Below are positions 1 through 28,256 of a DNA stretch of 35,909 nucleotides, piece by piece. The position numbers and the translations under genes were made by a program. The notes under the pieces are model-generated. The model did not search any database, was not told the DNA's origin, and saw nothing but the letters and a program-made list of their open reading frames with translations. Position 1 is the first letter of the stretch. Each line of letters starts with the position of its first letter. Where the stretch lies: the NCBI GenBank assembly GCA_028825345.1, contig JAPKAJ010000001.1:1-35909 (forward strand), given 5' to 3'. The DNA is from Arenicellales bacterium. GTDB taxonomy: Bacteria; Pseudomonadota; Gammaproteobacteria; Arenicellales; UBA868.

Positions 1-109
1 CGAGACCCGGAATTATTCCGGAGTCGGCGACCAACGTCGTAACGCGTTTTTTCACGTCCGCGCGTAAACGCTTGGCCATTGTTTTCCCGTCTATAACTGT
101 TGCGACCAT
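1..109 (-). CDS. folD: Bifunctional methylenetetrahydrofolate dehydrogenase/cyclohydrolase, 5' end (runs off window)
   Basis: Hand translation from ATG at 109 gives MVATVIDGKTMAKRLRADVKKRVTTLVADSGIIPGL, matching the FolD N-terminal pattern (A.IIDGK..A..LR...V..L....PGL). Not in the ORF track because it is partial. Confidence 0.88.
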   Translation of the reverse strand, partial: MVATVIDGKTMAKRLRADVKKRVTTLVADSGIIPGL

Positions 110-181
110 CGGGCGAGCGGTGCTTCCGCGTTCTGCCAAGGCGTTATTACCTTACCACTGGGAATTTATGCACACTTGAAA

Positions 182-931
182 TCACCGAGTTTTAAAGTGA
201 GGGCGACGCACCTTTTTGTTCGGCCAGTTCGTGGATGGTCGGTTTCTAGCGATAGAGCGATTGGTTTCGCGGATTATGCTGATGTTATCTCGCACCCAGG
301 TCAGCGCCAGGATCTGGTCGCGGAAACCGTTGGACGCCGATCCTGCCAGGGCGTCGTCGTACTTTGACAGATCAAGAAAACCAAAAACGCCGAGCCGATA
401 ATTGACGGTAACAATCACCACGTCGCCCTGGGCAGCAAGAATAGAACCGTCATGTTCATTGCCGGACCCGATGTAGTAAGCGCCCCCGTGAATCCAGAAC
501 AACACCGGCCGGGCGCGACCGTCCGCTGCAGGTGTGTAGATGTCCACAACCAGGCAGTCCTCACTGTATGTCGCTGACGACGACCCTAGACCGGGGATTT
601 TGGGTTGCATTGCGCGATTACCCGGCCGCGTGGCATCCAGCGTGCCCGACCAGGGTCCACGAAGTTCCGGTGCCTTGAAGCGGCGTTCACCGACGGGAGG
701 CTTTGCGTAGGGAACGCCCCGGTAGATCTGGATATCGTTTTCCGACTTTCCGACAATGGCGCCAAGCCGTGTCGTTATCGTGGTCATCGCAGGGACTTCC
801 TGTTCCTGGCGCACACCACCCACGACTTCCACCGCTACCACTGGCACCGATACCATAATGGCTGTCAACAAACCTGCAAGAAATCCTCGTTGTTTACCGG
901 TCCTGTTGCTTTCTGCATCTGCTTTGATCAC
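182..931 (-). pseudogene. 3'-truncated type-B carboxylesterase with a signal-peptide-like N-terminal extension
   Basis: From ATG at 787 (MTTITTRLG) to about 278 (DQILALTWVRDNI) it is nearly identical to the start of 11073..12545. It then runs into unrelated sequence and stops before the GESAG nucleophile motif, so the whole catalytic triad is missing. Upstream GTG at 931 has a GGAG RBS and adds a hydrophobic stretch (GFLAGLLTAIMVSVPVVA). Confidence 0.85.
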
Positions 932-962
932 AAATTTCTCCCATGGTCACGTCGCTTCCAAT

Positions 963-987
963 ACTGAATAGTGAATCAATATTCAAA
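963..987. promoter_or_regulatory. Palindromic operator copy 1 with overlapping leftward sigma70-like promoter
   Basis: ACTGAATAGTGA-A-TCAATATTCAAA, 3 mismatches to the consensus palindrome. Minus strand: TTGTGA (996-991), 17 bp, CACTAT (973-968). Confidence 0.75.
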
Positions 988-1091
988 TTATCACAAACGA
1001 TTTTTCAGGGGCTTAGCTTATGGTAGCAAGATGGTTGAATCGAAATTGTGGGATTCCATTTCGCACGTTCTTTGAGGTGATGTCGTCATGC

Positions 1092-8233: not shown

Positions 8234-9763
8234 CTACATGCTCCCGATCGCGGGGTCATCTGCCCATAGTTCATTGATCTCGTGATCGGGGTCCAGTAGC
8301 AAAGACGGTTCAGTCGAAAATCTCATGGTTGCGGGTAAGTCCCGGCTATAGACGGGCCATTCTGGCAGCCCCGATGATGACGGCGCGCCTTCTCGTGCAA
8401 AACTCAACCAGGCATCCATGGTTCTGGCGGACAGCACATCCGCTTCTCGTCCTTCAACAAAAAATCCGGCCGAACCATTTTTATCGTACGTTCCCCAGTT
8501 GAAACCAAGTTCTACCGCATGACACGCACCCACGACGCCTTCCATCAGCGGCGACGGCCAATCAAACAGATAGGAATAGGTCACGGCGTGTTCAGACTGC
8601 GCTTCAAGCAATCGCAGCGCAGGAATCCTGAAAACCTGGTCCGTCATAAATGCGGCCAGTACATCCACGGGCAATGAAGCCTTGTGGCGTGACTGCAGCC
8701 ATTCCCGATATTTAGCGATGACTTTATCCGCTGTATCAGGAAAGAAGGCCGCTACCTCTGCCTGCAGCTGTTGCTCATTCATATTGACCCGGGCAGGATC
8801 AATCACGGCAAACAGTCGCCACTCTTCCCTGCACGTACCAGTCATTACGGCAACACCAGCAGCTGATCCTTTCCGCACAAGGTTAATTGGCATCTCAGGT
8901 ATGACTGTTCCGTCAACATTCGGCCGAAATGCGCCCATGCCAGGCAGATTTTTGCCAACGGCAGCTTTGGCAAAATTCACCTGTAACTCACTAAATGCAG
9001 AGACTGGCAGTGCCAGAAGCGCTGAAGGATCAAAGGTACCAAGCAGCTCCAGCGCCAGCTCTGCCACCTGAAGTCCCTTCTCTGGCGAATTGGCGGAATG
9101 GCAGGCACCGCTCTGGGGAATCGCCTTGTGAAAAAGCCCTTTCGCTGCGGGCATCGCCATGAGGCAACCCACGGACATGCCACCTGCACTTTCCCCAAAA
9201 ATAGTGATGTTTGCAGGATCCCCGCCGAAGACGGAAATGTTATCACGGGTCCATTCGAGTGCCGCCACCTGGTCAAGCAGCCCCTCATTTCCTGTGGCCG
9301 GGATCTTGCCCCCTGTAAGCGCTTTCAGGTTCAAAAAACCGAGAGCGCCCATACGATAGTTGATGGTCACTACCACAACATCACCACGATCTGCGAGGTG
9401 CTGGCCGTCATAGATGGGCTGTGATCCCGACCCCATCGTAAACCCACCACCATGAATCCAGAACATTACCGGTCGTTTGCCCGCGGTTGCGGGAGTCCAT
9501 ATATTGAGGAAGAGACAATCTTCAGCCTGCTCGGGCGGTGTGTCGGCTTGTCCCATAAGCCAGTCAAGCATGCTTGAGTCTTGCGGTGCCTCAGCACCAA
9601 ATTTTGATGCATCCCGAACACCATCCCAACCAGGGTGCGGCTGCGGTGCCTGCCATCGCAGGTCTCCTACGGGCGGTGCGGCAAATGGTATGCCACGAAA
9701 TACCTTAAGCTGGTTTTCCTGCGTACCTTTAATTTTTCCAAGTGTGGTCGTTACTACGGTCAT
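8234..9763 (-). CDS. Type-B carboxylesterase (PnbA-like)
   Basis: FRGIPFAAPPVGDLRW, EDCLFLNIWTP, WIHGGG, GESAG, REEW, GACHAVE. ATGA overlap with the upstream amidohydrolase. Confidence 0.93.
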   Translation of the reverse strand: MTVVTTTLGKIKGTQENQLKVFRGIPFAAPPVGDLRWQAPQPHPGWDGVRDASKFGAEAPQDSSMLDWLMGQADTPPEQAEDCLFLNIWTPATAGKRPVMFWIHGGGFTMGSGSQPIYDGQHLADRGDVVVVTINYRMGALGFLNLKALTGGKIPATGNEGLLDQVAALEWTRDNISVFGGDPANITIFGESAGGMSVGCLMAMPAAKGLFHKAIPQSGACHSANSPEKGLQVAELALELLGTFDPSALLALPVSAFSELQVNFAKAAVGKNLPGMGAFRPNVDGTVIPEMPINLVRKGSAAGVAVMTGTCREEWRLFAVIDPARVNMNEQQLQAEVAAFFPDTADKVIAKYREWLQSRHKASLPVDVLAAFMTDQVFRIPALRLLEAQSEHAVTYSYLFDWPSPLMEGVVGACHAVELGFNWGTYDKNGSAGFFVEGREADVLSARTMDAWLSFAREGAPSSSGLPEWPVYSRDLPATMRFSTEPSLLLDPDHEINELWADDPAIGSM

Positions 9764-10950
9764 ATTTCTGTACCGATCTGGTAGACGCGGGCCGCGCAGT
9801 CATGGAAGAGCTCGTTCTTCTCGGTCGCCGTGAGCTTTAGCGCCGTCGTGACTCTCTTGAACGCGTTCCAGAGATTCGTATACGAGCACGACACCTTGTC
9901 GATGGGAAAATTCGACTCGAACATGCAGCGCTCCACGCCGAAGGCTTCGATCAGCTCCGCAAAGTAGGGTTGCCACGCCGTCGCCATCTCATCGGACGAA
10001 GGTGGCGCGTCGCGCTCCTCATAGCCCCATCCGTAGGCCGGCATGCCGCAACCGCCCAGTTTCATTACGACGTTTGGGCAACCGGCGAGTGAGCGGACAG
10101 CCCGCTGCCACTCGATGAACACCACGCCATCTCGCTCATTGGCCAGCGGACCCTTCTTGATCAGACCGCCGATATGGTTAACGACGATACTCACGCCCGG
10201 GAACGCGTTGGCGAGGTCTTCGACCTCACAGAGTTGCGTGTAATACCCATAGGAGTCGAACGAGAGATTCAGGCGGTCGAGCACTTTGAACCCAGCCCGA
10301 AAGTCGTCACTTGCGAGCAGTCCAGGTGTATCACCGGCCGTGCGGGAGTTCCCGATATCCGGCGATTCATGCCAGGCGTGAGAATGGCGAATGCCTCGAA
10401 ACCGGGGGCTTGCCGCCCGGTGGGCAAGGAGCACAGGCTCCACCGCTGCACCCAGGGTCAGATCCGCATAACTGACGATGGCCCCACAGCACCGCGCATC
10501 CGGGCCGTAGAGATTGCTTGCGGCCATGGCCGCGATGCCGTTCACGAATTCGGTCTCGCCGACGCTGAAATCGGCGCCTCCGTCGGCTCGATACATCGCC
10601 ATGCTATCGATGAACACAGTGTCGACGACGTTGTGGCCGCCGCCGCGAACGTCGTCCATGAGATCGTCAGCGAGATAGCAAAGCGGGAGACGACCGATCC
10701 ACTTCGGCAACGCGTCGATCTCGGATTGGGTAAGTGATCCCTCGGGAGACTCGGGTCGCGGCCGCCGATCCCACAAATGGTGATGGGGATCGATGATGGG
10801 TTGTTCCGGGTCGATGACCTCTTCCGACGTGCGTGCGAGCCATTCCCGCAGCACGACGCCCGGCACGTCGGGAAGGTCTGACCATCGCGGCAGCCCGGCG
10901 CCGTTAGGATCGCCATTGCGCGCGAGGGCTTTGCGAATTATTTTTGACAT
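9760..10950 (-). CDS. Amidohydrolase_2 family metal-dependent hydrolase (lactonase-like)
   Basis: IIDPHHHLWD, RFRGIRH, VNHIGG, MKLGG, CMFESNFPID. Paralog of 34413..35525. The first 23 or so residues include a carboxylesterase-derived segment. Confidence 0.88.
   Translation of the reverse strand: MSKIIRKALARNGDPNGAGLPRWSDLPDVPGVVLREWLARTSEEVIDPEQPIIDPHHHLWDRRPRPESPEGSLTQSEIDALPKWIGRLPLCYLADDLMDDVRGGGHNVVDTVFIDSMAMYRADGGADFSVGETEFVNGIAAMAASNLYGPDARCCGAIVSYADLTLGAAVEPVLLAHRAASPRFRGIRHSHAWHESPDIGNSRTAGDTPGLLASDDFRAGFKVLDRLNLSFDSYGYYTQLCEVEDLANAFPGVSIVVNHIGGLIKKGPLANERDGVVFIEWQRAVRSLAGCPNVVMKLGGCGMPAYGWGYEERDAPPSSDEMATAWQPYFAELIEAFGVERCMFESNFPIDKVSCSYTNLWNAFKRVTTALKLTATEKNELFHDCAARVYQIGTEI
10882..10929 (-). 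pseudogene. 48-nt carboxylesterase C-terminal remnant fused in frame into the amidohydrolase N-terminus
   Basis: Encodes ALARNGDPNGAGLPRW; 41/48 nt identical by hand alignment to 12393..12440 (AFARTGDPNGAGLPHW) of the adjacent esterase. Confidence 0.8.
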
Positions 10951-10952
10951 AA

Positions 10953-10977
10953 ACTGAATGTTGATTCAATATTCAGT
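10953..10977. promoter_or_regulatory. Palindromic operator copy 2, bidirectional promoter
   Basis: ACTGAATGTTGA-T-TCAATATTCAGT, 1 mismatch. Plus strand: TTGACA (10944-10949), 17 bp, CAATAT. Minus strand: TTGTGT (10986-10981), 17 bp, CAACAT. Lies between divergent genes. Confidence 0.88.
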
Positions 10978-11072
10978 TAAACACAACACATTTTTCAGAG
11001 CAGGATCCGAAATCGGATCAACCGCCGCAGATAACACAACACCACCTTCAACACCCTCAAGGAGTCGGTACT

Positions 11073-12545
11073 ATGACCACGGTGACTACACAGCTTGGCA
11101 GCATTACCGGCAAGCCGGAAAACGACATCCAGATGTTCCTGGGCGTCCCATATGCAAAACCCCCGGTGGGTGAACGGCGCTTTCAGGCGCCGGAACTCCA
11201 TGGACCCTGGTCAGGCACGCTGGATGCCACCAGGCTGGGAAACAGGGCGATGCAACCTGAAAACCCAACAGCTCCACCATCACCGGAGCCATTCAGCGAA
11301 GACTGTCTGACTGTGGACATCTACACACCTGCAGCGGACGATCGCGCCCGGCCGGTGTTGTTCTGGATTCATGGCGGCGCCTACTACATTGGCTCCGGTA
11401 ATGACCACGACGGCTCTATTCTTGCTGCCCAGGGCGACGTTGTGGTGGTTGCTGTCAACTATCGGCTTGGCGTATTTGGTTTTCTCGATCTGTCGAAGTA
11501 CGACGACGACCTGGCCGGATCGGCATCCAACGGCTTCCGCGACCAGATCATGGCGCTGACCTGGGTGAGGGACAACATCAATGATTACGGGGGTGACCCC
11601 AACAACGTGACCATCTTTGGCGAATCTGCCGGTGGTGGTTCGGTCAATGCGATTCTGGCCGCACCCTCCGCCGACGGCCTGTATCACCGCGCCATTGCTC
11701 ACAGTGGCACCGCCATCACCAACCCACCGGCGTCACTGTCAACGGAATTCGCCGCACACTTGGAGGTGGACGAGAGTGAATTGCTCACCCATCTCAAGCA
11801 ACTCTCGGCTCAAGATTTGCTGGCGGCTCAGCTCGGCGCCGGTGTTCTGGGTGAGGCCTGCGTTGACGGCGTGGTGATCACCCGGGATACCTACCAGGCA
11901 ATTGCCGAGCGCGGCGCGCGAGGCGTACCCTACATCGCGGGCTCCAATCTGCATGAAGGCACCTTTATGACTTCGTTTGCCCCCGAAGGGACCCCCTTCG
12001 ACCCCATGACCGCTGTCCTGGGAGCAATGCCCTTCGACCTCCTCCGCGTCGGTACGGAACCCGGCGATTACGTGACCGCGATGCAGGACGCTTATCCCGA
12101 CGAGACTGGCAAGAATCTCTACCAGCGGGTCTATACCGAGATGTTCCGCCGCGCTGCTATACGCACAAGTGAAGCCGCCACAGCGGCTGGGTCCAGCGGC
12201 TGGCTGTACCGTTTTGACCTGCCGTCCTCCGTCATGGACGGCGTTCTCGGCGCCACCCACGGCTGTGAGGTTGCGTTCACCTTCAACGACTATGCGCGCC
12301 CGGAGATTTCGCGCATTTCCTTCGCCCACTACCACGATCCGAAGGATCCAGTGGTCCGCCGACTGGCGCAGCAGTGGTCAAACACGGTACTAGCCTTCGC
12401 GCGCACTGGCGATCCCAACGGCGCTGGTCTGCCGCACTGGCCTCCTTATTCGGCCGATCAACGTGAAGTCATGATCATGGACGCCGAATCGAGAATTGAG
12501 CAGGACCCGGATAACCAATTGCGCAAGCGGTGGGGTGATGCGTGA
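11073..12545 (+). CDS. Type-B carboxylesterase
   Basis: AAGGAG RBS; WIHGGA, GESAG, NLHEG, GATHGCE; triad intact. Confidence 0.93.
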   Translation: MTTVTTQLGSITGKPENDIQMFLGVPYAKPPVGERRFQAPELHGPWSGTLDATRLGNRAMQPENPTAPPSPEPFSEDCLTVDIYTPAADDRARPVLFWIHGGAYYIGSGNDHDGSILAAQGDVVVVAVNYRLGVFGFLDLSKYDDDLAGSASNGFRDQIMALTWVRDNINDYGGDPNNVTIFGESAGGGSVNAILAAPSADGLYHRAIAHSGTAITNPPASLSTEFAAHLEVDESELLTHLKQLSAQDLLAAQLGAGVLGEACVDGVVITRDTYQAIAERGARGVPYIAGSNLHEGTFMTSFAPEGTPFDPMTAVLGAMPFDLLRVGTEPGDYVTAMQDAYPDETGKNLYQRVYTEMFRRAAIRTSEAATAAGSSGWLYRFDLPSSVMDGVLGATHGCEVAFTFNDYARPEISRISFAHYHDPKDPVVRRLAQQWSNTVLAFARTGDPNGAGLPHWPPYSADQREVMIMDAESRIEQDPDNQLRKRWGDA

Positions 12546-14616: not shown

Positions 14617-16035
14617 ATGAAACTTCTACTACTCGCTATGCTACTGACCTCGGCCACCGCCTTTGCGGAGAAACGCTGACTGGCTGGAGGCCATCACATC
14701 CATAGCCATTTCAGCCCCGGATACGACTACAGTGTGAATCCGCCGCGCGCCATTATAGGTGGCGATGCGGTTAACCCGATGCCTACCAATGCCACGCTCG
14801 CAAAAAAGTATGGTTTATCCTGGATCGTGGGGACGGACCATGGCGGACCAAATCACAGTAAGATTAATCGGGATATGGCCTATCCCGCATTGTTGAAATC
14901 CCGTAAGGAAGTCCCCGAGGTAATTCAGTTTTATGGGATGGAGTTAAACAGCCCCGGGGCCGACCACAGTAGTTTGATTATTCCGTACACCCACGATGAA
15001 CAGCAGGTACTGTTTAGGTTGGAACATGGTTTTGACAAGCGCGAAGTATTCCCGTTGGATATTAGCCGTGATGTCGAGGACAACATGCTGGCCGCATTAA
15101 CGGTTATGAAGGCGCTGCCGTCACCCCCGGTGGTCATCGCCAACCACCCTTCCCGCACCGCTACTGCATACGGTGAATATGGTGACGATGATCCAGCCGA
15201 GTTTCGTCACTGGAATGACACCGCGCCCAATGTCGCTGTGGGTATGGCCGGCGCACCAGGACACCAGGCGATGCCGCTGGCAGGCGACGCCATCAAAAAA
15301 ACGCTCGCCTCATACAAGATGCCTCTGAAGTTACCTCGAGGTGCGTACCTTGGTTATCCGACACTGGGTGGCTTCGATCAGATGACCGCGAGAGTGGGTG
15401 GGTTTTGGGACTCGATGCTCGGTGAAGGACGACGCTGATGGATCACATCCAACTCAGATTTTCATCGTCACCATTCAGATGAGGGTGTCGATTTTTACCC
15501 GGGTGAATATTCCAAGACCTTTGTCTACGCCGAGAAGAATCATGAGGCCATCTTGGCCGCGTTGCGCTCCGGACAGGTCTTCGTAACAACCGGTGACCTT
15601 GTCAGCGAGGTTTATGTCACGGTCAGGTACCAAAAAGCTGAAGCATCAATGGGCGGCGAACTGGTCGTCGACCAGGGCAGTGCGGTCCAGATTGAAATTC
15701 GTGTGCGCGATCCGGACGGCAAAAATAGTAATGGCAGCTATCCTGCTTTAAGCAGAATAGATCTGATAGCCGGAAATGTCGGCGCAAGATCCGCCGACCT
15801 TAGCATCAACAGCAACAGCAGCACCCGGGTGCTGCACCGCTTCACGGCCAAAAACTGGCGAAGGGCGAGCGAGTTCCTGACGATGCGCACAACACTCGCC
15901 ATTAACGAATCAATGTACCTGCGTGTACGCGGCACTAACACCAAAGAGCTTGAACCCACGGAGGACGCTGCGGGTGAAAACCCCTGGGATGACCTCTGGT
16001 TCTACACCAACCCGGTATTCGTTACGGCGAGATGA
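14617..16035 (+). pseudogene. Secreted PHP-domain phosphoesterase-like gene interrupted by two in-frame TGA codons
   Basis: A single frame runs from ATG 14617 (signal peptide MKLLLLAMLLTSATAFA) to TGA 16035, with internal TGA at 14677-14679 (KR*LAGGHHIHS) and 15436-15438 (GEGRR*WITSNSDFH). PHP motifs HIHS, TDHGG, NHPSR and SDFH are present. It joins track ORFs 14734..15438 and 15553..16035. Confidence 0.82.
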
Positions 16036-16051
16036 AGGCACACCAATTACA

Positions 16052-16114
16052 AATGGGAAATTTAAGCCAGTAGAAGTCGAATCAAGAAACGTATCTGAAG
16101 AAAACAGAACTCTC
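16052..16114 (+). pseudogene. 63-nt remnant of a second Zn alcohol dehydrogenase gene (C-terminal part)
   Basis: Encodes NGKFKPVEVESRNVSEENRTL versus DGKIEPVEVESRNVAEANRTL at 21727..21789; 51/63 nt identical by hand. Confidence 0.82.
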
Positions 16115-17168: not shown

Positions 17169-19601
17169 CTAGAACTCATAGGTAGCCTCAATCCCATAGC
17201 TCCTAGGTCTGGCGTAAGAATTAACTATTCCGAAAAGCGATTCGCCCCCGTTCCACACGAGGATTTCGTCATCGAACAGATTCCTGCCATACAGGGCCAG
17301 CCGCCACCGGTTTTCCGCAGCCTCTCGTATTGTCACGCGTATATTGGCCATGTTGTACTGCGGAACTTCCCTCCGATCGGTATTTTCCACATCGGACCAG
17401 CTTTTGGTTTGACCCGACCAGTCGAGGCGTACCTCCCCTTCGATACCAGGCATCACTGGAAACATATAAGCGGCCGATGCGGTCCATTTCCATTCGGGAG
17501 CATCGGGGAGTCTATTACCCTTCGTTTGAGCTAGACCGCCTTTGGGTTGAAAGGCCGAATCGATTTCTGCTTCAATCCACTGGACGCCTAGCCGCACGAA
17601 GAGATTCTCGGTGACCATCCCGGAGGCATTCAAGTCAAAACCCGTGCTATGGGCTTTACCGGTATTCCCATTGTAGGTCAAAGCCGAAGTTATACCGGCA
17701 AGGGGCCCTGCATCTTGTAGCATTATCGCGTCTTTCCAATCGAAATAGAATGCGGATCCTGTAAGATTCATACGGCCATCCAATAGCCTGAGCTTCGCGC
17801 CCAGTTCGTAATTGATCGCAGAATCACCATCAAAGTACAGCTTTGAATTCACAGCGACGAGTCTCTCGGAAACCAGGGCATCCTCCCCATCGCGAGTGGG
17901 CAGGTTGATATCACCGGCAGTTGCCAGAAGGTTATTCAGTAGGCCTAGATCATAGTTAAGATCGCCATTGTAGCCGCCCGGACGAAATCCGGTACTGACG
18001 ATGCCGAAATACATCATATCTTCATTCGGCCGCCAGGTCAGGCCAACCCTAGGTGTCCACTCCTGGTCATCAGTTCCCGCATTCACACGCGAGAACTCCT
18101 GCGTCATGTCTGTGTATCGCACACCTGCGTTAAGTTCCCAGCTTTCGGACAACGCGTAACTGAAATCGCCGAAGATCGCATATTCTTCAAGGCTATTATC
18201 AGGGCTATTTTCAGGCGCTAGCAGGAAGCTCTCATACTGCGGCCGCCACTGTTCCGTTTCTGGGGTCAGTCCAAAGGGTGCGTTTCTGCTTGTGGAATCG
18301 TCGCTGTCCTTGTAAAAAAATCCTGCTATCCAACCGAACGGACCATCCCCATTGGAAACCAGACGAAACTCCTGCGCAAAGCGTTCTGATTCGATGTAGA
18401 ACGTCCCGGCAAACGACGTCATATTAGTCATATCCTGAGGATTGCCAGTAAAAGGGATGGGGGCACTGGGATCACCGAACGGTGCCAATTGATAATTATT
18501 AACGAGTGCGGCATACCAGTCGATTAAGTGCGTACCGGTTTCCAAAAATTCTTGAGAAAAACTCGCGTCCCGATCGAAATAGGAAGTGGAGGACGTAAAA
18601 TCCGCCCAAGGAAACGCGTACTCAACCACCAGGTTATACTGTTGCAGATCATCGTAGGATCCAGGTGCAAATGGCGATGCTTGCGTTTCGACGTAATAAG
18701 GTGCTGAAGCCCAGGCATAGCTGTCCGTTTCGGATTCGAGGGTAGAAGCCGTGAATTTTACAGACAACTGATCCGTAGCCTGCCATTTGGCAGTTATCCT
18801 TCCCCCACTACTCGTCTCCGTGTTTATATCTTTCTCTACGGTGGTTCCGGCAATTGTTCTTCGGTCAAGATAGCCCGGTGACTCTGTTGTAAACCCCACC
18901 AGCCTGACGGCGAACTTGTCTTTAACAAGGGGGATGTTAACCATTCCGTCAAAACGGTAGCCTGTATCGCCGGACTCATTCATGCCATTAAAGTTGACCT
19001 GGACTTTAGAGGCCCACTCGTTGAGATCCGGCTGATTACTGATGTAACGGATGGTGCCCGCCATCGATCCCTCGCCGAACAGGGTTCCCTGGGGCCCATT
19101 GAGAACCTCGACACGTGCCAGGTCGAACATCACTCCACCGATCTGCCGATCCGGCTCCTGACCCCCGGTCACTGGTGTTTCATCGATGTATATAGACGTC
19201 ATGGCTTTAGTCTGGTTGGGTGCCTCATAACCGGATATCGCTCTTATACCCCGTATGCTGACGTTGGTTCTGGACGAATCAGTTTGAATAACATTGAGGC
19301 TGGGAACGGCAAGGGCCAAGTCGGCCATGTTCTGAAGACCCATGCTCTCGATCATAGACTCATCTATCGCCATCATGGAGAGGGGCGTGTCCATCTCCGC
19401 CGTATCCCTGTACGTGGCCGTGACCACAATCTCATCCAGGAAAGGTGTCGCTTTCTTTTTCGCTTCCCTTTCCATGTCACCCGCGGCGGCTGCATGGGTG
19501 GCCGCAGGTAAAAAGGTCAAAAAGCCAAAAAAAACCAGTGAAAATGTCACGACCTTGGCAGGCCAATCGCTTCTTCTTCCGATAAAGTTTCTTGAGATCA
19601 T
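17169..19601 (-). CDS. TonB-dependent outer-membrane receptor
   Basis: GAGGT RBS and ATG at 19601; signal peptide; TonB box LDEIVVTA; plug motif RVEVLNGPQGTLFG; C-terminal RPRSYGIEATYEF ending in Phe. Confidence 0.93.
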   Translation of the reverse strand: MISRNFIGRRSDWPAKVVTFSLVFFGFLTFLPAATHAAAAGDMEREAKKKATPFLDEIVVTATYRDTAEMDTPLSMMAIDESMIESMGLQNMADLALAVPSLNVIQTDSSRTNVSIRGIRAISGYEAPNQTKAMTSIYIDETPVTGGQEPDRQIGGVMFDLARVEVLNGPQGTLFGEGSMAGTIRYISNQPDLNEWASKVQVNFNGMNESGDTGYRFDGMVNIPLVKDKFAVRLVGFTTESPGYLDRRTIAGTTVEKDINTETSSGGRITAKWQATDQLSVKFTASTLESETDSYAWASAPYYVETQASPFAPGSYDDLQQYNLVVEYAFPWADFTSSTSYFDRDASFSQEFLETGTHLIDWYAALVNNYQLAPFGDPSAPIPFTGNPQDMTNMTSFAGTFYIESERFAQEFRLVSNGDGPFGWIAGFFYKDSDDSTSRNAPFGLTPETEQWRPQYESFLLAPENSPDNSLEEYAIFGDFSYALSESWELNAGVRYTDMTQEFSRVNAGTDDQEWTPRVGLTWRPNEDMMYFGIVSTGFRPGGYNGDLNYDLGLLNNLLATAGDINLPTRDGEDALVSERLVAVNSKLYFDGDSAINYELGAKLRLLDGRMNLTGSAFYFDWKDAIMLQDAGPLAGITSALTYNGNTGKAHSTGFDLNASGMVTENLFVRLGVQWIEAEIDSAFQPKGGLAQTKGNRLPDAPEWKWTASAAYMFPVMPGIEGEVRLDWSGQTKSWSDVENTDRREVPQYNMANIRVTIREAAENRWRLALYGRNLFDDEILVWNGGESLFGIVNSYARPRSYGIEATYEF

Positions 19602-19644
19602 GTTTACCTCTTCAATTTTGATTAGGTTGTTAAGCGGACGCACT

Positions 19645-19669
19645 ACTGAATACTGATTCAATATTCAGT
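19645..19669. promoter_or_regulatory. Palindromic operator copy 3 with leftward promoter for the TonB-dependent receptor
   Basis: ACTGAATACTGA-T-TCAATATTCAGT, 1 mismatch. Minus strand: TTGACA (19678-19673), 17 bp, CAGTAT. An extra box CCAATATTGA lies at 19681-19690. Confidence 0.88.
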
Positions 19670-19703
19670 TTATGTCAAACCCAATATTGAATAGTTTTGC
19701 AAT

Positions 19704-20258
19704 TTATAAAGAAAGCAAGTCGTAATTCTTCCCCATCCGGACCCGTAACGTTCGGGTCGCCCGTGCGAGGGCTGCAATCTGGTCTTCATAACCTCGGTTA
19801 GCGCTCCCCGCGTATTCCGGACCCCATCGACTTACATCGAGAAAACCAAAAATACTCAGGCGGTAATTGATCGACACCACCACAATGTCATTATTCCGAG
19901 CCAATGCGGTACCGTCGTATAGGTTGGCGGAGTCCTGGATCAACCCGCCACCGTGAATCCAGAAGATCACTGGGCACGGTTTGCCTCCTGTCCCGGGGTG
20001 TAGATGTTCAAGTACAGGAAATCCTCACTCTCAGCGCCAGGTTCCCTTCCAACCATGACTTCCTGATCAGCCGGCGGCTGCGGGCAAAAGTTTGGGAAGT
20101 GGGTCGCATCGAATGTCCCGTCCAGTCAGCGCTGGGGCCGGTGCACGCCAGCGTCTGCTGCCAACCGGTGCTGCCGCATATGGCAACCCCAGAAAAACAT
20201 CAACGCCGTCGTTGTGTAAACCCTACACCTTGCCTAATCGAGTCTTAACCACTGTCAT
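19704..20258 (-). pseudogene. Degenerate carboxylesterase
   Basis: GGGAG RBS and ATG at 20258 give [32 protein letters not shown], with TAG at 20225-20223. Frameshifts precede SEDFLYLNIYTP and IFWIHGGG. After DQIAAL it jumps out of frame to RTGDPNVTG (19767-19741). Confidence 0.9.
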
Positions 20259-20441
20259 CACGTTCTCCCTTTGAGTTTGAAACAGGCGGACCAACCGAGT
20301 GCGTTACGACCTGGTCCCATAGATAGCCTCCGGAAAATATGCGAACTCAGAGGCTCGACATTTGGTGACTGGTTCCAACAGCAAATACTTTATGCAACAC
20401 ACAACCTCCAGTTCATCAGCTGTCCGCGCAGAGAGTTGTTT

Positions 20442-20495
20442 CAGTTTCAGTTTCAGTTTCAGTTGCAGTTGCAGTTGCAGTTGCAGTTGCAGTTG
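20442..20495. repeat. Compound hexanucleotide tandem repeat (CAGTTT)3(CAGTTG)6
   Basis: Directly visible; ends flush against operator copy 4 at 20496. Confidence 0.95.
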
Positions 20496-20520
20496 ACTGA
20501 ATATTGATTCAATATTCAAT
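20496..20520. promoter_or_regulatory. Palindromic operator copy 4, probable bidirectional promoter
   Basis: ACTGAATATTGA-T-TCAATATTCAAT, 1 mismatch. Minus strand: TTGGCA (20529-20524), 17 bp, CAATAT. Plus strand: TTGCAG (20487-20492, inside the repeat), 17 bp, CAATAT. Confidence 0.85.
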
Positions 20521-20796
20521 TTATGCCAAAAATTATAATCCCGTACGTAAAGTGGCTATCTCGTCCTTGCTGCATAGGCTCGTTCCCGACCATTTGGTTG
20601 AGAACGTTAATCACCTCAGAGACGAGTTCGTGATCACAATTGTTATGAAAACGCCCGGAAATGGATTGACACTGGCTTCAACCGGTTTCGTGACACAAAA
20701 CCCCAAAAACGTTAAACCTGACATTTGATTTCGACGGGATAAAGAAAACGACGGATTCCGGTGTGTACCAGAGACCTAAACTAAACAGGAGACATT

Positions 20797-21843
20797 ATGA
20801 AAGCATTTCAGGTAGCAGAAAATGGCAAACCACTAGTAGAAGTAGAACTAGAAACACCAACACCAACGGGCCAAGAAATTCTGCTAAAGACTATATCATG
20901 TGGAGTTTGTCATTCAGATATTCATATACACGATGGTTATTTTGAACTGGGTGGAGGAGCGAAGCTTCCAACTCCTCTAATGGAACCTTTAACCATGGGT
21001 CATGAAATATTTGGAGAAGTTATTGCCTTTGGGGAAAAGGTTTCCAATATAAAGGTAGGCGAGAAATATGTTGCTTACCCATGGATAGGGTGTGGAGATT
21101 GTGAACTTTGTAACGTCGACAAAACGCAATACTGTATGAACAATACAAACCTTGGCGTCAACGTAGGCGGCGGATATGGCGATCATGTATTGGTGCCCGG
21201 AGAACAATATCTATTTGATGCAGGAGACACCCCGGACAACCTGGCCGGTAGCTATGCATGCAGAGGTCTTACTGCTTTTAGTGCTCTAAAAAAAGCCGAA
21301 CCTTTTCCTCAGGATAACTCATTGGTAATTATCAGTGCGGGAGGTTTAGGTCTCCTGGCTTTAAAAATTGCCATAGCAAAATATGGCATTAATCCGATCG
21401 TCATCGATATTGATGACGATAAGCTAAAAGTTGCAAAAGAGTTGGGCGCTTCTGCTGTCATTAACTCTTCATCTGAAGGAGCCGCAGGGAAAATACTTGA
21501 ACTGACTGGCGGTGGTGCAAGATCTATAGTCGATTTTGTTGGTGCCGAAGTTACTGCTAATTTGGGTTATCAATGTCTTACCAGAGGCGGGACACTAGTA
21601 GTCGTTGGCCTATTCGGCGGCCAGATTAAGGTTGCTTTGCCCGTACACGTTTTGACAGAAAAGAAACTCATCGGTTCTTATGTCGGAAGTTTAGGAGAAA
21701 TGAAAGAACTAATGGCACTAGTTGCGGATGGAAAAATTGAGCCCGTAGAAGTTGAATCAAGAAATGTAGCTGAAGCAAACAGGACGCTTAAAGAAATGAA
21801 AGAAGGAAAACTTTTAGGCCTGGTCGCTTTAACACATAGCTAA
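20797..21843 (+). CDS. Zn-dependent (MDR) alcohol dehydrogenase, AT-rich
   Basis: AGGAG RBS; CGVCHSD, GHE, structural Zn CGDCELC...C, AGGLG nucleotide-binding motif. Confidence 0.93.
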   Translation: MKAFQVAENGKPLVEVELETPTPTGQEILLKTISCGVCHSDIHIHDGYFELGGGAKLPTPLMEPLTMGHEIFGEVIAFGEKVSNIKVGEKYVAYPWIGCGDCELCNVDKTQYCMNNTNLGVNVGGGYGDHVLVPGEQYLFDAGDTPDNLAGSYACRGLTAFSALKKAEPFPQDNSLVIISAGGLGLLALKIAIAKYGINPIVIDIDDDKLKVAKELGASAVINSSSEGAAGKILELTGGGARSIVDFVGAEVTANLGYQCLTRGGTLVVVGLFGGQIKVALPVHVLTEKKLIGSYVGSLGEMKELMALVADGKIEPVEVESRNVAEANRTLKEMKEGKLLGLVALTHS

Positions 21844-22044: not shown

Positions 22045-22977
22045 TTACAAAAGGGTTTGCAGCTTGGCCGCTACCCCGGCCACGGCGTCTATCCAATTCT
22101 GATCGCGGTCGCCAACAGTAAATTTTGACAACTCCTGACGTTCGCCGATAAGTAGCACGTGGGACAATCCCTCTCGACCCGCCACCACTTCAGGTTGGGC
22201 CCCGGCTTCATTCAACCAGAAATCTCCGTAAGTCTTTGTCACACCATCAACCGTACAAGCACCCTCCACCACGACATGGAGCGTTTCGGTGCCGAGGTTA
22301 CCGGCTGGCACAACTCTGGCGCTAGGATCACCCTTCAACAACACCAGAACCGGGCCAACCCTGCGATCGCCCATGAGAGAAACGGTCGCTCGAATACCCG
22401 GCGAAACTTCGTCCCAGTCCTTCGCAGTGTCAAAACTGCTATCCAGATGGCCGAGTGATGTTTCGCCCAGGGTCGAGGCAATAGCAGACCCCTCAGGGCT
22501 CGGATGCTCATCCTGAATACCCAACTTATCAGAGAATGGCTTTTGCTGGACTGCGGCTTGCTCCTGAAGTTTTTTGTCAACCGGACAGGCCGGCCAGCCG
22601 CGACGGTCGCCAAAAACCAGCACCCCATAGCCTCCCTTCGGGCCCCAGGCCACGTTGTCGCCGGGATAAGAGATGCTGCCGTCCTGGAAGCGAAACTGGC
22701 CATCGACATAGGCATATTTACCCACATTGGTCGTCCCAAGAATGGACATCCGCCAGGTATCCGAGTCGTGTCCATGGGCCGGTCCCCGGGGCATCTCGTC
22801 TTCCATCGGCCCAAAACAACTAAACAATATATAGGGCCCTGCGGTGTCGTCGCCCATCAGTAAGTCCAGCGATTTGCCAACTCCGAAAAATCGCCGCCAA
22901 CCTTCCACGTGACGATAAGACAGGTTTAGCTGACCATTAACAGCCGGGTCGATCTTTCCAACCGGTGTTGAATACAT
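22045..22977 (-). CDS. Hypothetical protein, possibly tandem cupin/beta-barrel fold
   Basis: GGAGG RBS; 310 aa; last gene of the BVMO operon. HGHDSD and HVVVEG...V patterns resemble cupin motifs. No firm family call. Confidence 0.6.
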   Translation of the reverse strand: MYSTPVGKIDPAVNGQLNLSYRHVEGWRRFFGVGKSLDLLMGDDTAGPYILFSCFGPMEDEMPRGPAHGHDSDTWRMSILGTTNVGKYAYVDGQFRFQDGSISYPGDNVAWGPKGGYGVLVFGDRRGWPACPVDKKLQEQAAVQQKPFSDKLGIQDEHPSPEGSAIASTLGETSLGHLDSSFDTAKDWDEVSPGIRATVSLMGDRRVGPVLVLLKGDPSARVVPAGNLGTETLHVVVEGACTVDGVTKTYGDFWLNEAGAQPEVVAGREGLSHVLLIGERQELSKFTVGDRDQNWIDAVAGVAAKLQTLL

Positions 22978-26182: not shown

Positions 26183-27964
26183 TTACTGCCTGAATTCCAG
26201 CCCTTCGTGGTCGCCTGCGTTTCGCCAGTCTTCAAGCAGTTTGAAAAATGCCAGTGGGCCTTGCGGGTACACAGTAATGGCGCCGCTGGATTTACCCTCG
26301 CCGTTGAAGTAACTGGGCGTGCACTCGCCCTGACCTAGGAAGGGGGGCGCCACGGTACTTTGAATCATCTTGGTCCAAGCCGATTCAGCCTCTTCGGTGA
26401 CCTCGACCTCACGTACGCCTTCTTCGAGGGCACGGCCGATGATGTACGTCAACTGCATCGCGGCCTCATCGACCAGGTGCGTGAAGTTCGAAGTGAGGCC
26501 GCCTTGTTTGGCCCCGACGATAAATGCGTTCGGAAAGCCGCGGGTGTGCGTGCCGTGCAAACTACGCATGTCGTCGCCCCAATGCGCTGACAACTTGCGA
26601 CCGTCCCGACCGATCAATTCGTAACCGATCCGCTGGGTGAACGCAGTGCCCACCTCGAAGCCCGTGGCGTAAATGAGACAATCAACTTCGTACTCGACGC
26701 CATCGACCACGACGGCGTTCTCGGTGATACGCTCGCAACCCTTGCCGTCGGTGTCGACCAGCTTCACGGCCGGTTCGTTGAAGGCCTGCAGGAACTCGTC
26801 GTGGAAGCACGGCCGCTTACAGAACAGCGCATACCAGGGCTTGAGCGCCGCTGCCGTGGCCGGATCCTGGACGTGTTCGTCGACCCGGGTCCGCAGCTCA
26901 TTCATCTTGCCCATATTCATGCGCTCCATCAGCGCACCGAACTCTTCCGGTGACATCTCGGCCCCGGCCTTCATGTGCTCGAGGATTCGGGCGATGAGGT
27001 CGGTCCAGGCATCGTCCACCAGGTCCTCGGTGACATCACCGCCGTGGGTCATCGCAGTGAAGTTCTCGATCCGCCTGGCCTGCCATCCTGGCTCCAGCGA
27101 CGCAGCCCACTCGGAATCGGTCGGTCGGTTGTTGCGCACGTCGATCGTCGAAGCAGTGCGCTGGAATACACAGAGTTCCTTGCACGCCTTGGCCAGGTGA
27201 GGAACAATCTGCACCGAGGTAGCGCCGGTGCCGATGAGACCCACCCGCTTGTCTCGGAGCTTATCCTGTCCTCCGAGCACGTTGCCGCCGGTGTAGTCGT
27301 AATCCCACCGACTGGTGTGGAAAGAGTGACCCTTGAAGTTCTCGATGCCTGGAATCCCCGGTAGCTTCGGCCGGTGTAGCGGACCATTACCGATGACTAT
27401 GAACTGGGCCCGTATCGCATCGCCCCGGTTAGTGCAGATAATCCATCGCGATGCGTCGGCATCCCAGTCGACGGCGGTGATCTCAGTCGAGAGGCAGGCA
27501 TTGTCGTAAAGTCCGAAGTGCTTGGCGATTCGCTGACAGTGCGCCTGGATCTCAGGTGCATGGACGTACTTCTCTGTGGGGACGTAGCCGGTCTCTTCGA
27601 GCAGCGGCAGGTAGACATATGAATCGATATCACACTGTGCCCCCGGGTAGCGGTTCCAGTACCACGTGCCTCCAACGTCGCCAGCTTTGTCGATGAGGCG
27701 CACGTCAGTAATCCCCGCCTGGACCAGGCGGGCGCCGACCGTCAGCCCCGAGAGCCCGGCACCGATCAGCGCCACTGTCACGTCGTCCGCCAGCGGCTCC
27801 CGCGGCGTCACCTCGCTGTAGGGGTCGTCGAGAAAATGAGCGTATTGCCCCTTGAGCTCAACAAACTGACTGATGCCGTCTGTGCGCATGCGCTTCTCGC
27901 GTTCTACGCGGTACTTTGCCCGGATCGATTCGGCGCCGAGGTCGGAATTGTCTGTCTCTGTCAT
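26183..27964 (-). CDS. Type I Baeyer-Villiger monooxygenase
   Basis: GAGLSG and GTGATS Rossmann motifs, GGTWYWNRYPGAQCD, BVMO fingerprint FKGHSFHTSRWD, ATGF. Start placed at MTETD (27964, AAGGGA RBS), not 28063. Confidence 0.93.
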   Translation of the reverse strand: MTETDNSDLGAESIRAKYRVEREKRMRTDGISQFVELKGQYAHFLDDPYSEVTPREPLADDVTVALIGAGLSGLTVGARLVQAGITDVRLIDKAGDVGGTWYWNRYPGAQCDIDSYVYLPLLEETGYVPTEKYVHAPEIQAHCQRIAKHFGLYDNACLSTEITAVDWDADASRWIICTNRGDAIRAQFIVIGNGPLHRPKLPGIPGIENFKGHSFHTSRWDYDYTGGNVLGGQDKLRDKRVGLIGTGATSVQIVPHLAKACKELCVFQRTASTIDVRNNRPTDSEWAASLEPGWQARRIENFTAMTHGGDVTEDLVDDAWTDLIARILEHMKAGAEMSPEEFGALMERMNMGKMNELRTRVDEHVQDPATAAALKPWYALFCKRPCFHDEFLQAFNEPAVKLVDTDGKGCERITENAVVVDGVEYEVDCLIYATGFEVGTAFTQRIGYELIGRDGRKLSAHWGDDMRSLHGTHTRGFPNAFIVGAKQGGLTSNFTHLVDEAAMQLTYIIGRALEEGVREVEVTEEAESAWTKMIQSTVAPPFLGQGECTPSYFNGEGKSSGAITVYPQGPLAFFKLLEDWRNAGDHEGLEFRQ

Positions 27965-28025
27965 AGGGGGTCCCTTGCTGGGTGGATTATAGAAGATTCG
28001 CCGTTCGCTATGCCGCCCGCTTGTG

Positions 28026-28091
28026 AAGCGCACCAGACCAGGGTCCGCAGGGTTCCGGCGCATGTAGCGTCATTCACCACTGGGGGGTCAT
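28026..28091 (-). pseudogene. Carboxylesterase N-terminal remnant in the BVMO leader
   Basis: GAGGAAG RBS, then ATG-AC joined to CCCCCAGTGG-TGAATGACGCTA-CATGCGCCGGAACCCTGCGGACCCTGGTCTGGTGCGCTT (PPVGE..HAPEPCGPWSGAL). About 48/63 positions identical by hand to 11160..11222 (PPVGERRFQAPELHGPWSGTL). Confidence 0.78.
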
Positions 28092-28185
28092 GTCTGCTTC
28101 CTCTCTTTTTATTCCTTGTATTTACCTGGCCAATCCCAAAAAAAGGTGTGCACTGGATGAACCAGGTATTTGTTCGTTGTATCAA

Positions 28186-28210
28186 ACTGAATTTTGATTC
28201 AATATTCAGT
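28186..28210. promoter_or_regulatory. Palindromic operator copy 5, bidirectional promoter
   Basis: ACTGAATTTTGA-T-TCAATATTCAGT, 1 mismatch. Plus strand: TTGTAT (28177-28182), 17 bp, CAATAT. Minus strand: TTGATA (28219-28214), 17 bp, CAAAAT. Lies between the divergent BVMO and ABC operons. Confidence 0.88.
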
Positions 28211-28256
28211 TTATATCAACGTAAATCGTGTTGTAAATATGTAAATGGAGGTTGAG

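What the first reader, a model, noticed from the sequence alone, without database searches (positions are those of the whole stretch)
10944..10986. The operator is itself a symmetric, bidirectional promoter module
Seen: each half of the palindrome supplies a CAnnAT -10-like hexamer. A TTG-starting hexamer lies exactly 17 bp upstream of it on all 8 sides facing a gene start: TTGTGA, TTGTGT, TTGACA, TTGACA, TTGGCA, TTGCAG, TTGATA, TTGTAT. The 2 sides facing no gene start have GCTTCC (954-959) and GGACGC (19636-19641). Inference: a 43-bp unit TTGnnn-N3-palindrome-N3-nnnCAA holds two overlapping opposite-strand sigma70 promoters blocked by one repressor, with direction set by the flanking TTG. The -10 matches to TATAAT are weak, though the key -11 A and -7 T are kept.
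Basis: partly seen in the sequence, partly recalled or inferred. Interest (0 to 1): 0.75.

Follow-up and report, generated by a model that had tools for sequence, protein, structure and literature searches.

The report
TetR operator doubling as two-way promoter
A 43-base DNA unit repeated five times in this bacterial gene cluster is likely the binding site of a TetR-type repressor that also likely serves as the promoter for whichever neighbouring gene starts there, on one side or both, which is a tidy case of a known design.

Summary
Observation confirmed: all ten hexamers are as stated.

A sixth copy sits on the start of a TetR-family gene on another contig, which close relatives place 1.76 kb from site 1.

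In 14 of 14 distinct tetR upstream regions TTG lies 17 bp before the CAnnnT. In 13 of 14 the ATG follows 6-8 nt later, the geometry of a leaderless sigma70 transcript.

Over 40 related sites, sides facing a gene start carry TTG in 47 of 55, with consensus TTGACA and only at spacer 17; other sides in 1 of 18.

The rule is a tendency, not a law. Eight gene-facing sides lack TTG, only 8 of 16 two-gene units have it on both sides, and site 4 faces gene remnants. No start site or binding was measured.

This is a TetR-repressed pair of overlapping divergent promoters, like PacrA/acrR and leaderless acuR. One neat detail: four in-frame Met-Ser-Lys starts spell the opposite strand's TTGACA.

The parts
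10944..10986 (.). Unit 2 (the finding): operator plus both flanking -35 hexamers
10953..10977 (.). 25-bp palindrome, likely TetR operator (centre 10965)
   Evidence: link to TetR
10944..10949 (+). -35 TTGACA for the esterase; on the other strand it overlaps the ATG-TCA-A start of the amidohydrolase
10967..10972 (+). predicted -10 CAATAT; predicted +1 at 10979
   Evidence: register inferred from tetR
10981..10986 (-). -35 TTGTGT for the amidohydrolase
10958..10963 (-). predicted -10 CAACAT; ATG at 10950 follows after 7 nt
9760..10950 (-). amidohydrolase (PF04909), candidate leaderless start Met-Ser-Lys; next in-frame start is codon 28
11073..12545 (+). carboxylesterase (PF00135)
954..996 (-). 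Unit 1, one-way: TTGTGA-17-CACTAT towards the esterase start at 931; other side GCTTCC faces a gene end
19636..19678 (-). Unit 3, one-way: TTGACA-17-CAGTAT towards the TonB-dependent receptor (SD-led ATG at 19601); other side GGACGC
20487..20529 (.). Unit 4: TTGCAG towards tetR remnant and ADH (20797); TTGGCA towards a frameshifted esterase
20556..20706 (+). 3' remnant of a tetR paralog
28177..28219 (.). Unit 5: TTGTAT towards an ABC transporter operon (28245); TTGATA towards a flavin monooxygenase (26183-28063)

Best explanation
The 25-bp palindrome is likely the operator of a TetR-family repressor encoded on a neighbouring contig, and each half-site likely doubles as a weak sigma70 -10 element that is predicted to fire when a TTGACA-like -35 lies 17 bp upstream in the flank. 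Shown: the repeats, the hexamers, the TetR gene with the operator on its start, and the association of TTG with gene-facing sides. Inferred: RNA polymerase uses CAnnAT as the -10 and starts 6-7 nt later. Inferred: the TetR dimer covers both -10s and spacers, so one binding event would silence both directions until a ligand, probably a substrate or product of the ester-degrading enzymes, releases it. Inferred: tetR is autorepressed and leaderless. Units between two genes can be two-way (sites 2 and 5). Units with one gene are one-way, and their idle flank has no -35 (sites 1 and 3). A minority of regulated genes lack the TTG and would rely on a weaker -35 or a separate promoter.
For: Six copies in the genome score 38.6-44.5 bits; the next site scores 18. 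The sixth lies on the start of a PF00440 TetR gene. Genomes reached by TetR homology carry the motif at tetR: 9 of 10, and the tenth with a relaxed pattern. Two further genomes had no match (a Myxococcota relative; a tetR at a contig edge). In 14 of 14 distinct tetR upstream regions (44-100% protein identity) TTG is 17 bp before CAnnnT, and in 13 of 14 the in-frame ATG follows after 6 nt (8 cases), 7 nt (2) or 8 nt (3). Spacings of 17 and 6 are the commonest for sigma70 (PMC8407463, passages). Over 40 sites: gene-facing sides TTG 47 of 55, other sides 1 of 18. Without window sites and three orthologs it is 38 of 45 vs 1 of 14; collapsed by descent group 26 of 31 vs 0 of 5, Fisher p 7e-4. Gene-facing consensus is T53 T51 G48 A29 C24 A35 of 55, and TTG occurs 0 of 55 at spacers 14-16 and 18-20. 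Eleven unrelated pattern matches have TTG on 0 of 22 sides. The host has canonical sigma70-like promoters before several tRNA genes.
Against: No start site, reporter or binding data. -12 is C at all 55 gene-facing sides, and the invariant A and T were fixed by my search pattern, so they do not show promoter function. Eight of 55 gene-facing sides lack TTG (six face monooxygenase genes). For L068, L071 and L072 the scan found no alternative above 7 of 12. L065 has TTG on a side with no gene, made by tetR's Ser-Lys codons. One tetR (L056) is SD-led, not leaderless. The copies share descent, and I assigned sides to classes by hand with the hexamers in view. Two gene-facing ORFs (L010, L083) have no Pfam support, and L010 and L062 were kept because their flanks resemble other copies. 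An unrelated TetR gene (L021) has the same core and no TTG.
Confidence: 0.8

Rival explanations
1. The TTG flanks are outer contacts of a longer repressor site, or inherited baggage of duplicated copies, and the real promoters lie elsewhere.
For: Copies are related by descent (shared A-tract upstream of sites 1, 2 and tetR). -12C and the 3 of 6 match are poor for sigma70. Two monooxygenase-facing sides have a separate TATAAT 34 nt from the centre (L008, L054).
Against: An operator contact should not depend on gene direction, yet TTG is 47 of 55 vs 1 of 18. Idle flanks read CTGCAT or CTGCAC where tetR promoters read TTGCAT. The tetR ATG leaves no room for a leader. TTG-17-CAnnnT-ATG persists in two Myxococcota relatives whose palindrome is degenerate.
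Confidence: 0.07
2. The TTG is a real -35 but the -10 is read in the 18-bp register (AATATT), or units work essentially one way, with the weaker side (TTGTGT, TTGTAT, TTGTTT) nearly silent.
For: The scanner prefers TTGACA-18-AATATT at site 2 (10 of 12). In 8 of 16 two-gene units only one side has TTG.
Against: In the 18-bp register position -11 would be the variable base (A, C, G or T across tetR promoters) and the modal gap to ATG would be 5 nt. Weaker TTG flanks are kept in orthologs (L039, L028, L060).
Confidence: 0.11
3. The palindrome is bound by an activator or a different regulator, not by this TetR acting as repressor.
For: Binding is untested, and a distant TetR gene (L021) and an S24-type repressor gene (L040) have matching cores upstream.
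Against: The motif travels with P0001 relatives down to about 48% identity. A protein centred on the spacer and -10 is placed to block polymerase.
Confidence: 0.02

Closest known systems
E. coli PacrA/acrR (PMC12825309; part 1 of 6 and passages read)
   Same: A TetR-family auto-repressor shuts both divergent RNAs of one compact promoter region, and -35 changes tune one direction.
   Different: There the -10 hexamer is partly shared. Here two separate -10s lie inside the operator halves, 3 bp apart, and the same register recurs at dozens of sites.
Rhodobacter acuR-acuI-dddL (PMC3017554; passages)
   Same: Leaderless TetR gene, operator inverted repeat overlapping a TTG/-10 promoter, conserved in relatives, catabolic targets.
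   Different: Described as one operon; different operator sequence; experimentally mapped, which this is not.
Bidirectional promoters of Warman et al. (bioRxiv 10.1101/2020.01.31.928960, part 1 of 2; PMC10268837 passages)
   Same: DNA symmetry gives -10 elements on both strands; 29 bp is named among enriched start spacings.
   Different: The class is defined by starts 7-25 bp apart with overlapping -10s, usually 18 bp. The prediction here is 28-30 bp with non-overlapping -10s and strong -35s. Their Figure S3 was not seen.
Divergent TetR-family regulator/target pairs in general (PMC3511530; abstract)
   Same: A TetR regulator represses nearby genes, mostly enzymes, from a short intergenic region.
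   Different: Here tetR itself is often not divergent from a target, and the operator is copied across an island of about 40 kb.

Membership tests
TetR-family operator | Palindrome at the start of a gene with a TetR helix-turn-helix | tested here: met
   (PF00440)
TetR-family operator | Motif conserved with the regulator across relatives | tested here: met
TetR-family operator | Direct binding, and release by a ligand | not testable with these tools
   needs EMSA or footprinting
sigma70 promoter | TTGACA-like -35 at 17 bp | tested here: met
   47 of 55 gene-facing sides, consensus TTGACA, no TTG at neighbouring spacers
sigma70 promoter | TATAAT-like -10 with -11A and -7T | tested here: inconclusive
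   A and T present but confounded with the operator and the search pattern; -12 is C; 3 of 6 match
sigma70 promoter | Transcription start about 6 nt after the -10 | tested here: inconclusive
   indirect only: tetR ATG 6-8 nt after it in 13 of 14; no raw RNA reads were served
Bidirectional promoter (Warman definition) | Divergent starts 7-25 bp apart around a shared -10 | tested here: not met
   predicted starts 10951 and 10979, 28 bp apart; the -10s at 10958-10963 and 10967-10972 do not overlap (definition)
Leaderless transcript | mRNA 5' end at the start codon, no Shine-Dalgarno | tested here: inconclusive
   geometry and conserved N-termini fit; 5' end not mapped

The most novel reading that the evidence does not exclude
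The 43-bp unit is a portable, triply coded cassette that began as the leaderless tetR promoter and was copied around a mobile marine catabolic island. The palindrome is the operator and both -10s. The first codons of a leaderless gene, ATG TCA AAA (Met-Ser-Lys), are at the same time the perfect TTGACA -35 of the opposite promoter (window amidohydrolase, L055 tetR, L053 glyoxalase, L028). New genes would come under the repressor simply by landing next to either flank, and unused flanks lose their TTG. Against it: any TTGACAT creates that ATG, and 8 of the 13 gene-facing ATGs at a 7-nt gap are not in frame with the gene.
Probability: 0.3. Interest if true: 0.5.

Novelty: new member of a known kind. 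Interest (0 to 1): 0.32.

Why it matters
It identifies an undescribed TetR regulon, with its operator and predicted start sites, over an esterase/monooxygenase/TonB-receptor island found in seawater. It also gives a natural series of about 40 variants of one promoter in which the -10 is held fixed at a non-consensus -12C by the operator and direction tracks the -35. That series could test how much a -35 alone sets direction, and the unit could serve as a compact two-way repressible promoter part. It does not change what is known about how repressors and divergent promoters work.

Tried and rejected
Family-wide search: 0 of 45 other genomes of the family carry the motif, so close kin gave no test.

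RNA: only assembled contigs were served, which cannot show starts or strand. Contigs from four metatranscriptomes cover parts of the TonB receptor gene (one reaches 19620, 23 nt from the predicted +1) and the stretch right of site 4 from 20552. None covers 19624-20287, which a run of unrecorded kind spans. This gap would fit an idle GGACGC side and also an idle TTGGCA side at site 4, but the contigs stop at different places and depth is 2-9, so I give it no weight.

A second register with -35 inside the half-site and -10 in the opposite flank was dropped because -11 would be T. The 18-bp register was dropped because -11 varies. The microsatellite origin of TTGCAG at site 4 was considered; L051 keeps TTGCAG without the repeat.

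Relaxed-pattern scans of ten genomes added scattered one-mismatch hits that I did not follow up.

Of 64 distinct contexts, 40 were tested and 11 served as unrelated controls. Thirteen were left out: near-duplicates, one cut by a contig end, one two-mismatch hit. Within the 40, seven sides were set aside (3 facing gene remnants; 4 cut, facing an IS fragment or facing a second operator).

Paper searches found no report of a start codon doubling as the opposite -35 (0 papers) or of this exact single-operator design (1 unrelated listing). Searches gave listings I did not read. The library lacks most subscription journals. The journal version of Warman et al. was not held. Three look-ups of earlier findings were empty.

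Full report
Observation. The window holds five copies of a 25-bp palindrome (cores at 963, 10953, 19645, 20496, 28186). The surrounding genes are carboxylesterases, amidohydrolases, MFS and ABC transporters, a TonB-dependent receptor, a flavin monooxygenase and dehydrogenases; no intact regulator was found in the window. TTG fills 3% of flank positions, and the chance that the two non-TTG sides are the two gene-end sides is 1/45. Site 4 is weaker than described: one side faces a frameshifted esterase, the other a tetR remnant and then ADH 268 bp away.

The repressor. A weight-matrix scan of the genome found one more copy, on contig C163 (39.9 bits; next best 18). It sits on the start of a 218-aa TetR-family gene, P0001. 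In relatives about 99% identical, C163 continues the window from position 280 leftwards, putting the tetR unit 1764 bp from site 1. The motif is absent from 45 other genomes of the family. It is present at tetR in genomes reached by protein homology (9 of 10, the tenth with a relaxed pattern; two further genomes had no match). I infer that P0001 binds it; binding was not tested.

The promoter register. This set was found by protein homology, independent of flanks. In 14 distinct tetR upstream regions, 14 have TTG 17 bp before CAnnnT, and 13 have the in-frame ATG 6, 7 or 8 nt after it (8, 2 and 3 cases). The exception, L056, has a Shine-Dalgarno-led start. Homologs share this N-terminus. Spacings of 17 and 6 are the commonest at sigma70 promoters (PMC8407463, passages), and leaderless TetR genes are known (acuR and Tn1721 tetR; PMC3017554, passages). 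This is the best evidence that CAnnAT is the -10, and it is indirect.

The direction rule. A core-only pattern gave 57 metagenome loci. With genome loci there were 64 distinct contexts. Gene direction came from Pfam and tblastn and was assigned by hand, not blind. Among 40 related sites, TTG is at the -35 position on 47 of 55 gene-facing sides and 1 of 18 other sides. Excluding window sites and three orthologs it is 38 of 45 vs 1 of 14; with one vote per descent group it is 26 of 31 vs 0 of 5 (p 7e-4). The gene-facing consensus is TTGACA, with no TTG at spacers 14-16 or 18-20. Eleven unrelated matches give 0 of 22 (all). Several idle flanks read CTGCAT or CTGCAC, one change from the TTGCAT of tetR promoters, which suggests decay. 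Kin are not independent, so the p values overstate.

Against. Eight gene-facing sides lack TTG, six of them towards monooxygenase genes, including the ortholog of site 5's minus side. Two of these have a separate TATAAT downstream; three have no alternative above 7 of 12. Of 16 two-gene units only 8 have TTG on both sides. L065 has TTG on a gene-free side. The -12 base is C throughout, and the -11A/-7T conservation cannot be separated from operator recognition. No raw RNA reads were available; the contig evidence is recorded under Tried and rejected.

Mechanism. Each operator half supplies a weak -10, and a good -35 in the flank would compensate. The repressor covers both -10s and both spacers, so it would block both directions and its own leaderless message until a ligand releases it. 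The ligand is unknown; an ester or its acid is a guess from the gene content. Predicted starts at a two-way unit are 28-30 bp apart.

Dual coding. TTGACAT on one strand reads ATG TCA A on the other, 7 nt after that strand's -10. In four cases this ATG opens the adjacent gene as Met-Ser-Lys: the window amidohydrolase, L055 tetR, L053 glyoxalase and L028. For L055 and L053 the next in-frame start lies inside the domain (codons 30 and 37). In 8 of 13 gene-facing cases the 7-nt ATG opens only a short frame, so part of this is a by-product.

Comparison. It works like PacrA/acrR, where AcrR represses both RNAs (PMC12825309), and like leaderless acuR. It fails the Warman definition of a bidirectional promoter (starts 7-25 bp apart, shared -10), though 29 bp is named there as an enriched spacing; their supplementary Figure S3 was not seen and may bear on this. 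My searches found no description of this regulon or of the start-codon/-35 overlap, within an open-access library only.

Verdict. It is a new member of a known kind. Interest 0.32.

Noticed in passing
window 1-279: The first 279 bases do not align to near-identical relatives, where the esterase at 182-931 continues into contig C163 and tetR. The minus strand there reads like the N-terminus of FolD (resemblance recalled, not searched). Either an assembly misjoin or an island junction that truncates the esterase.
   Followed up: partly
whole window; L064: The cluster's motif is absent from 45 other genomes of the family, yet DNA 97.8% identical over 9 kb is in a MAG titled Planctomycetota, and looser relatives are in Gammaproteobacteria. 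Mobile island or mis-binned contig.
   Followed up: partly
window 10882-10930: The start of the amidohydrolase gene contains a 49-nt piece 86% like the 3' end of the neighbouring esterase (12392-12440), so its N-terminus looks chimeric.
   Followed up: partly
window 20432-20495: A hexamer microsatellite abuts unit 4 and ends in its TTGCAG flank; its length differs among relatives.
   Followed up: partly
window 19704-20270 and 20556-20706: A frameshifted esterase and a tetR 3' remnant flank unit 4; RNA contigs cover the remnant and ADH.
   Followed up: partly
window 16041-16113 and 21716-21788: A 73-nt remnant of the low-GC ADH gene's 3' end lies 5.7 kb upstream of it.
   Followed up: no
L021:387-407: A 65% GC contig has the same core and the TAAAC flank before an unrelated, SD-led TetR gene, without TTG.
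   Followed up: partly
L056:1679 and 1789: One relative has two operators 110 bp apart, one per direction, between an esterase and an SD-led tetR: a split version of the two-way unit.
   Followed up: partly
window 14734-15438 and 22045-22977: ORFs of 234 and 310 aa with no Pfam or NCBIfam hit; the 310-aa one has a relative directly under an operator in L053.
   Followed up: no
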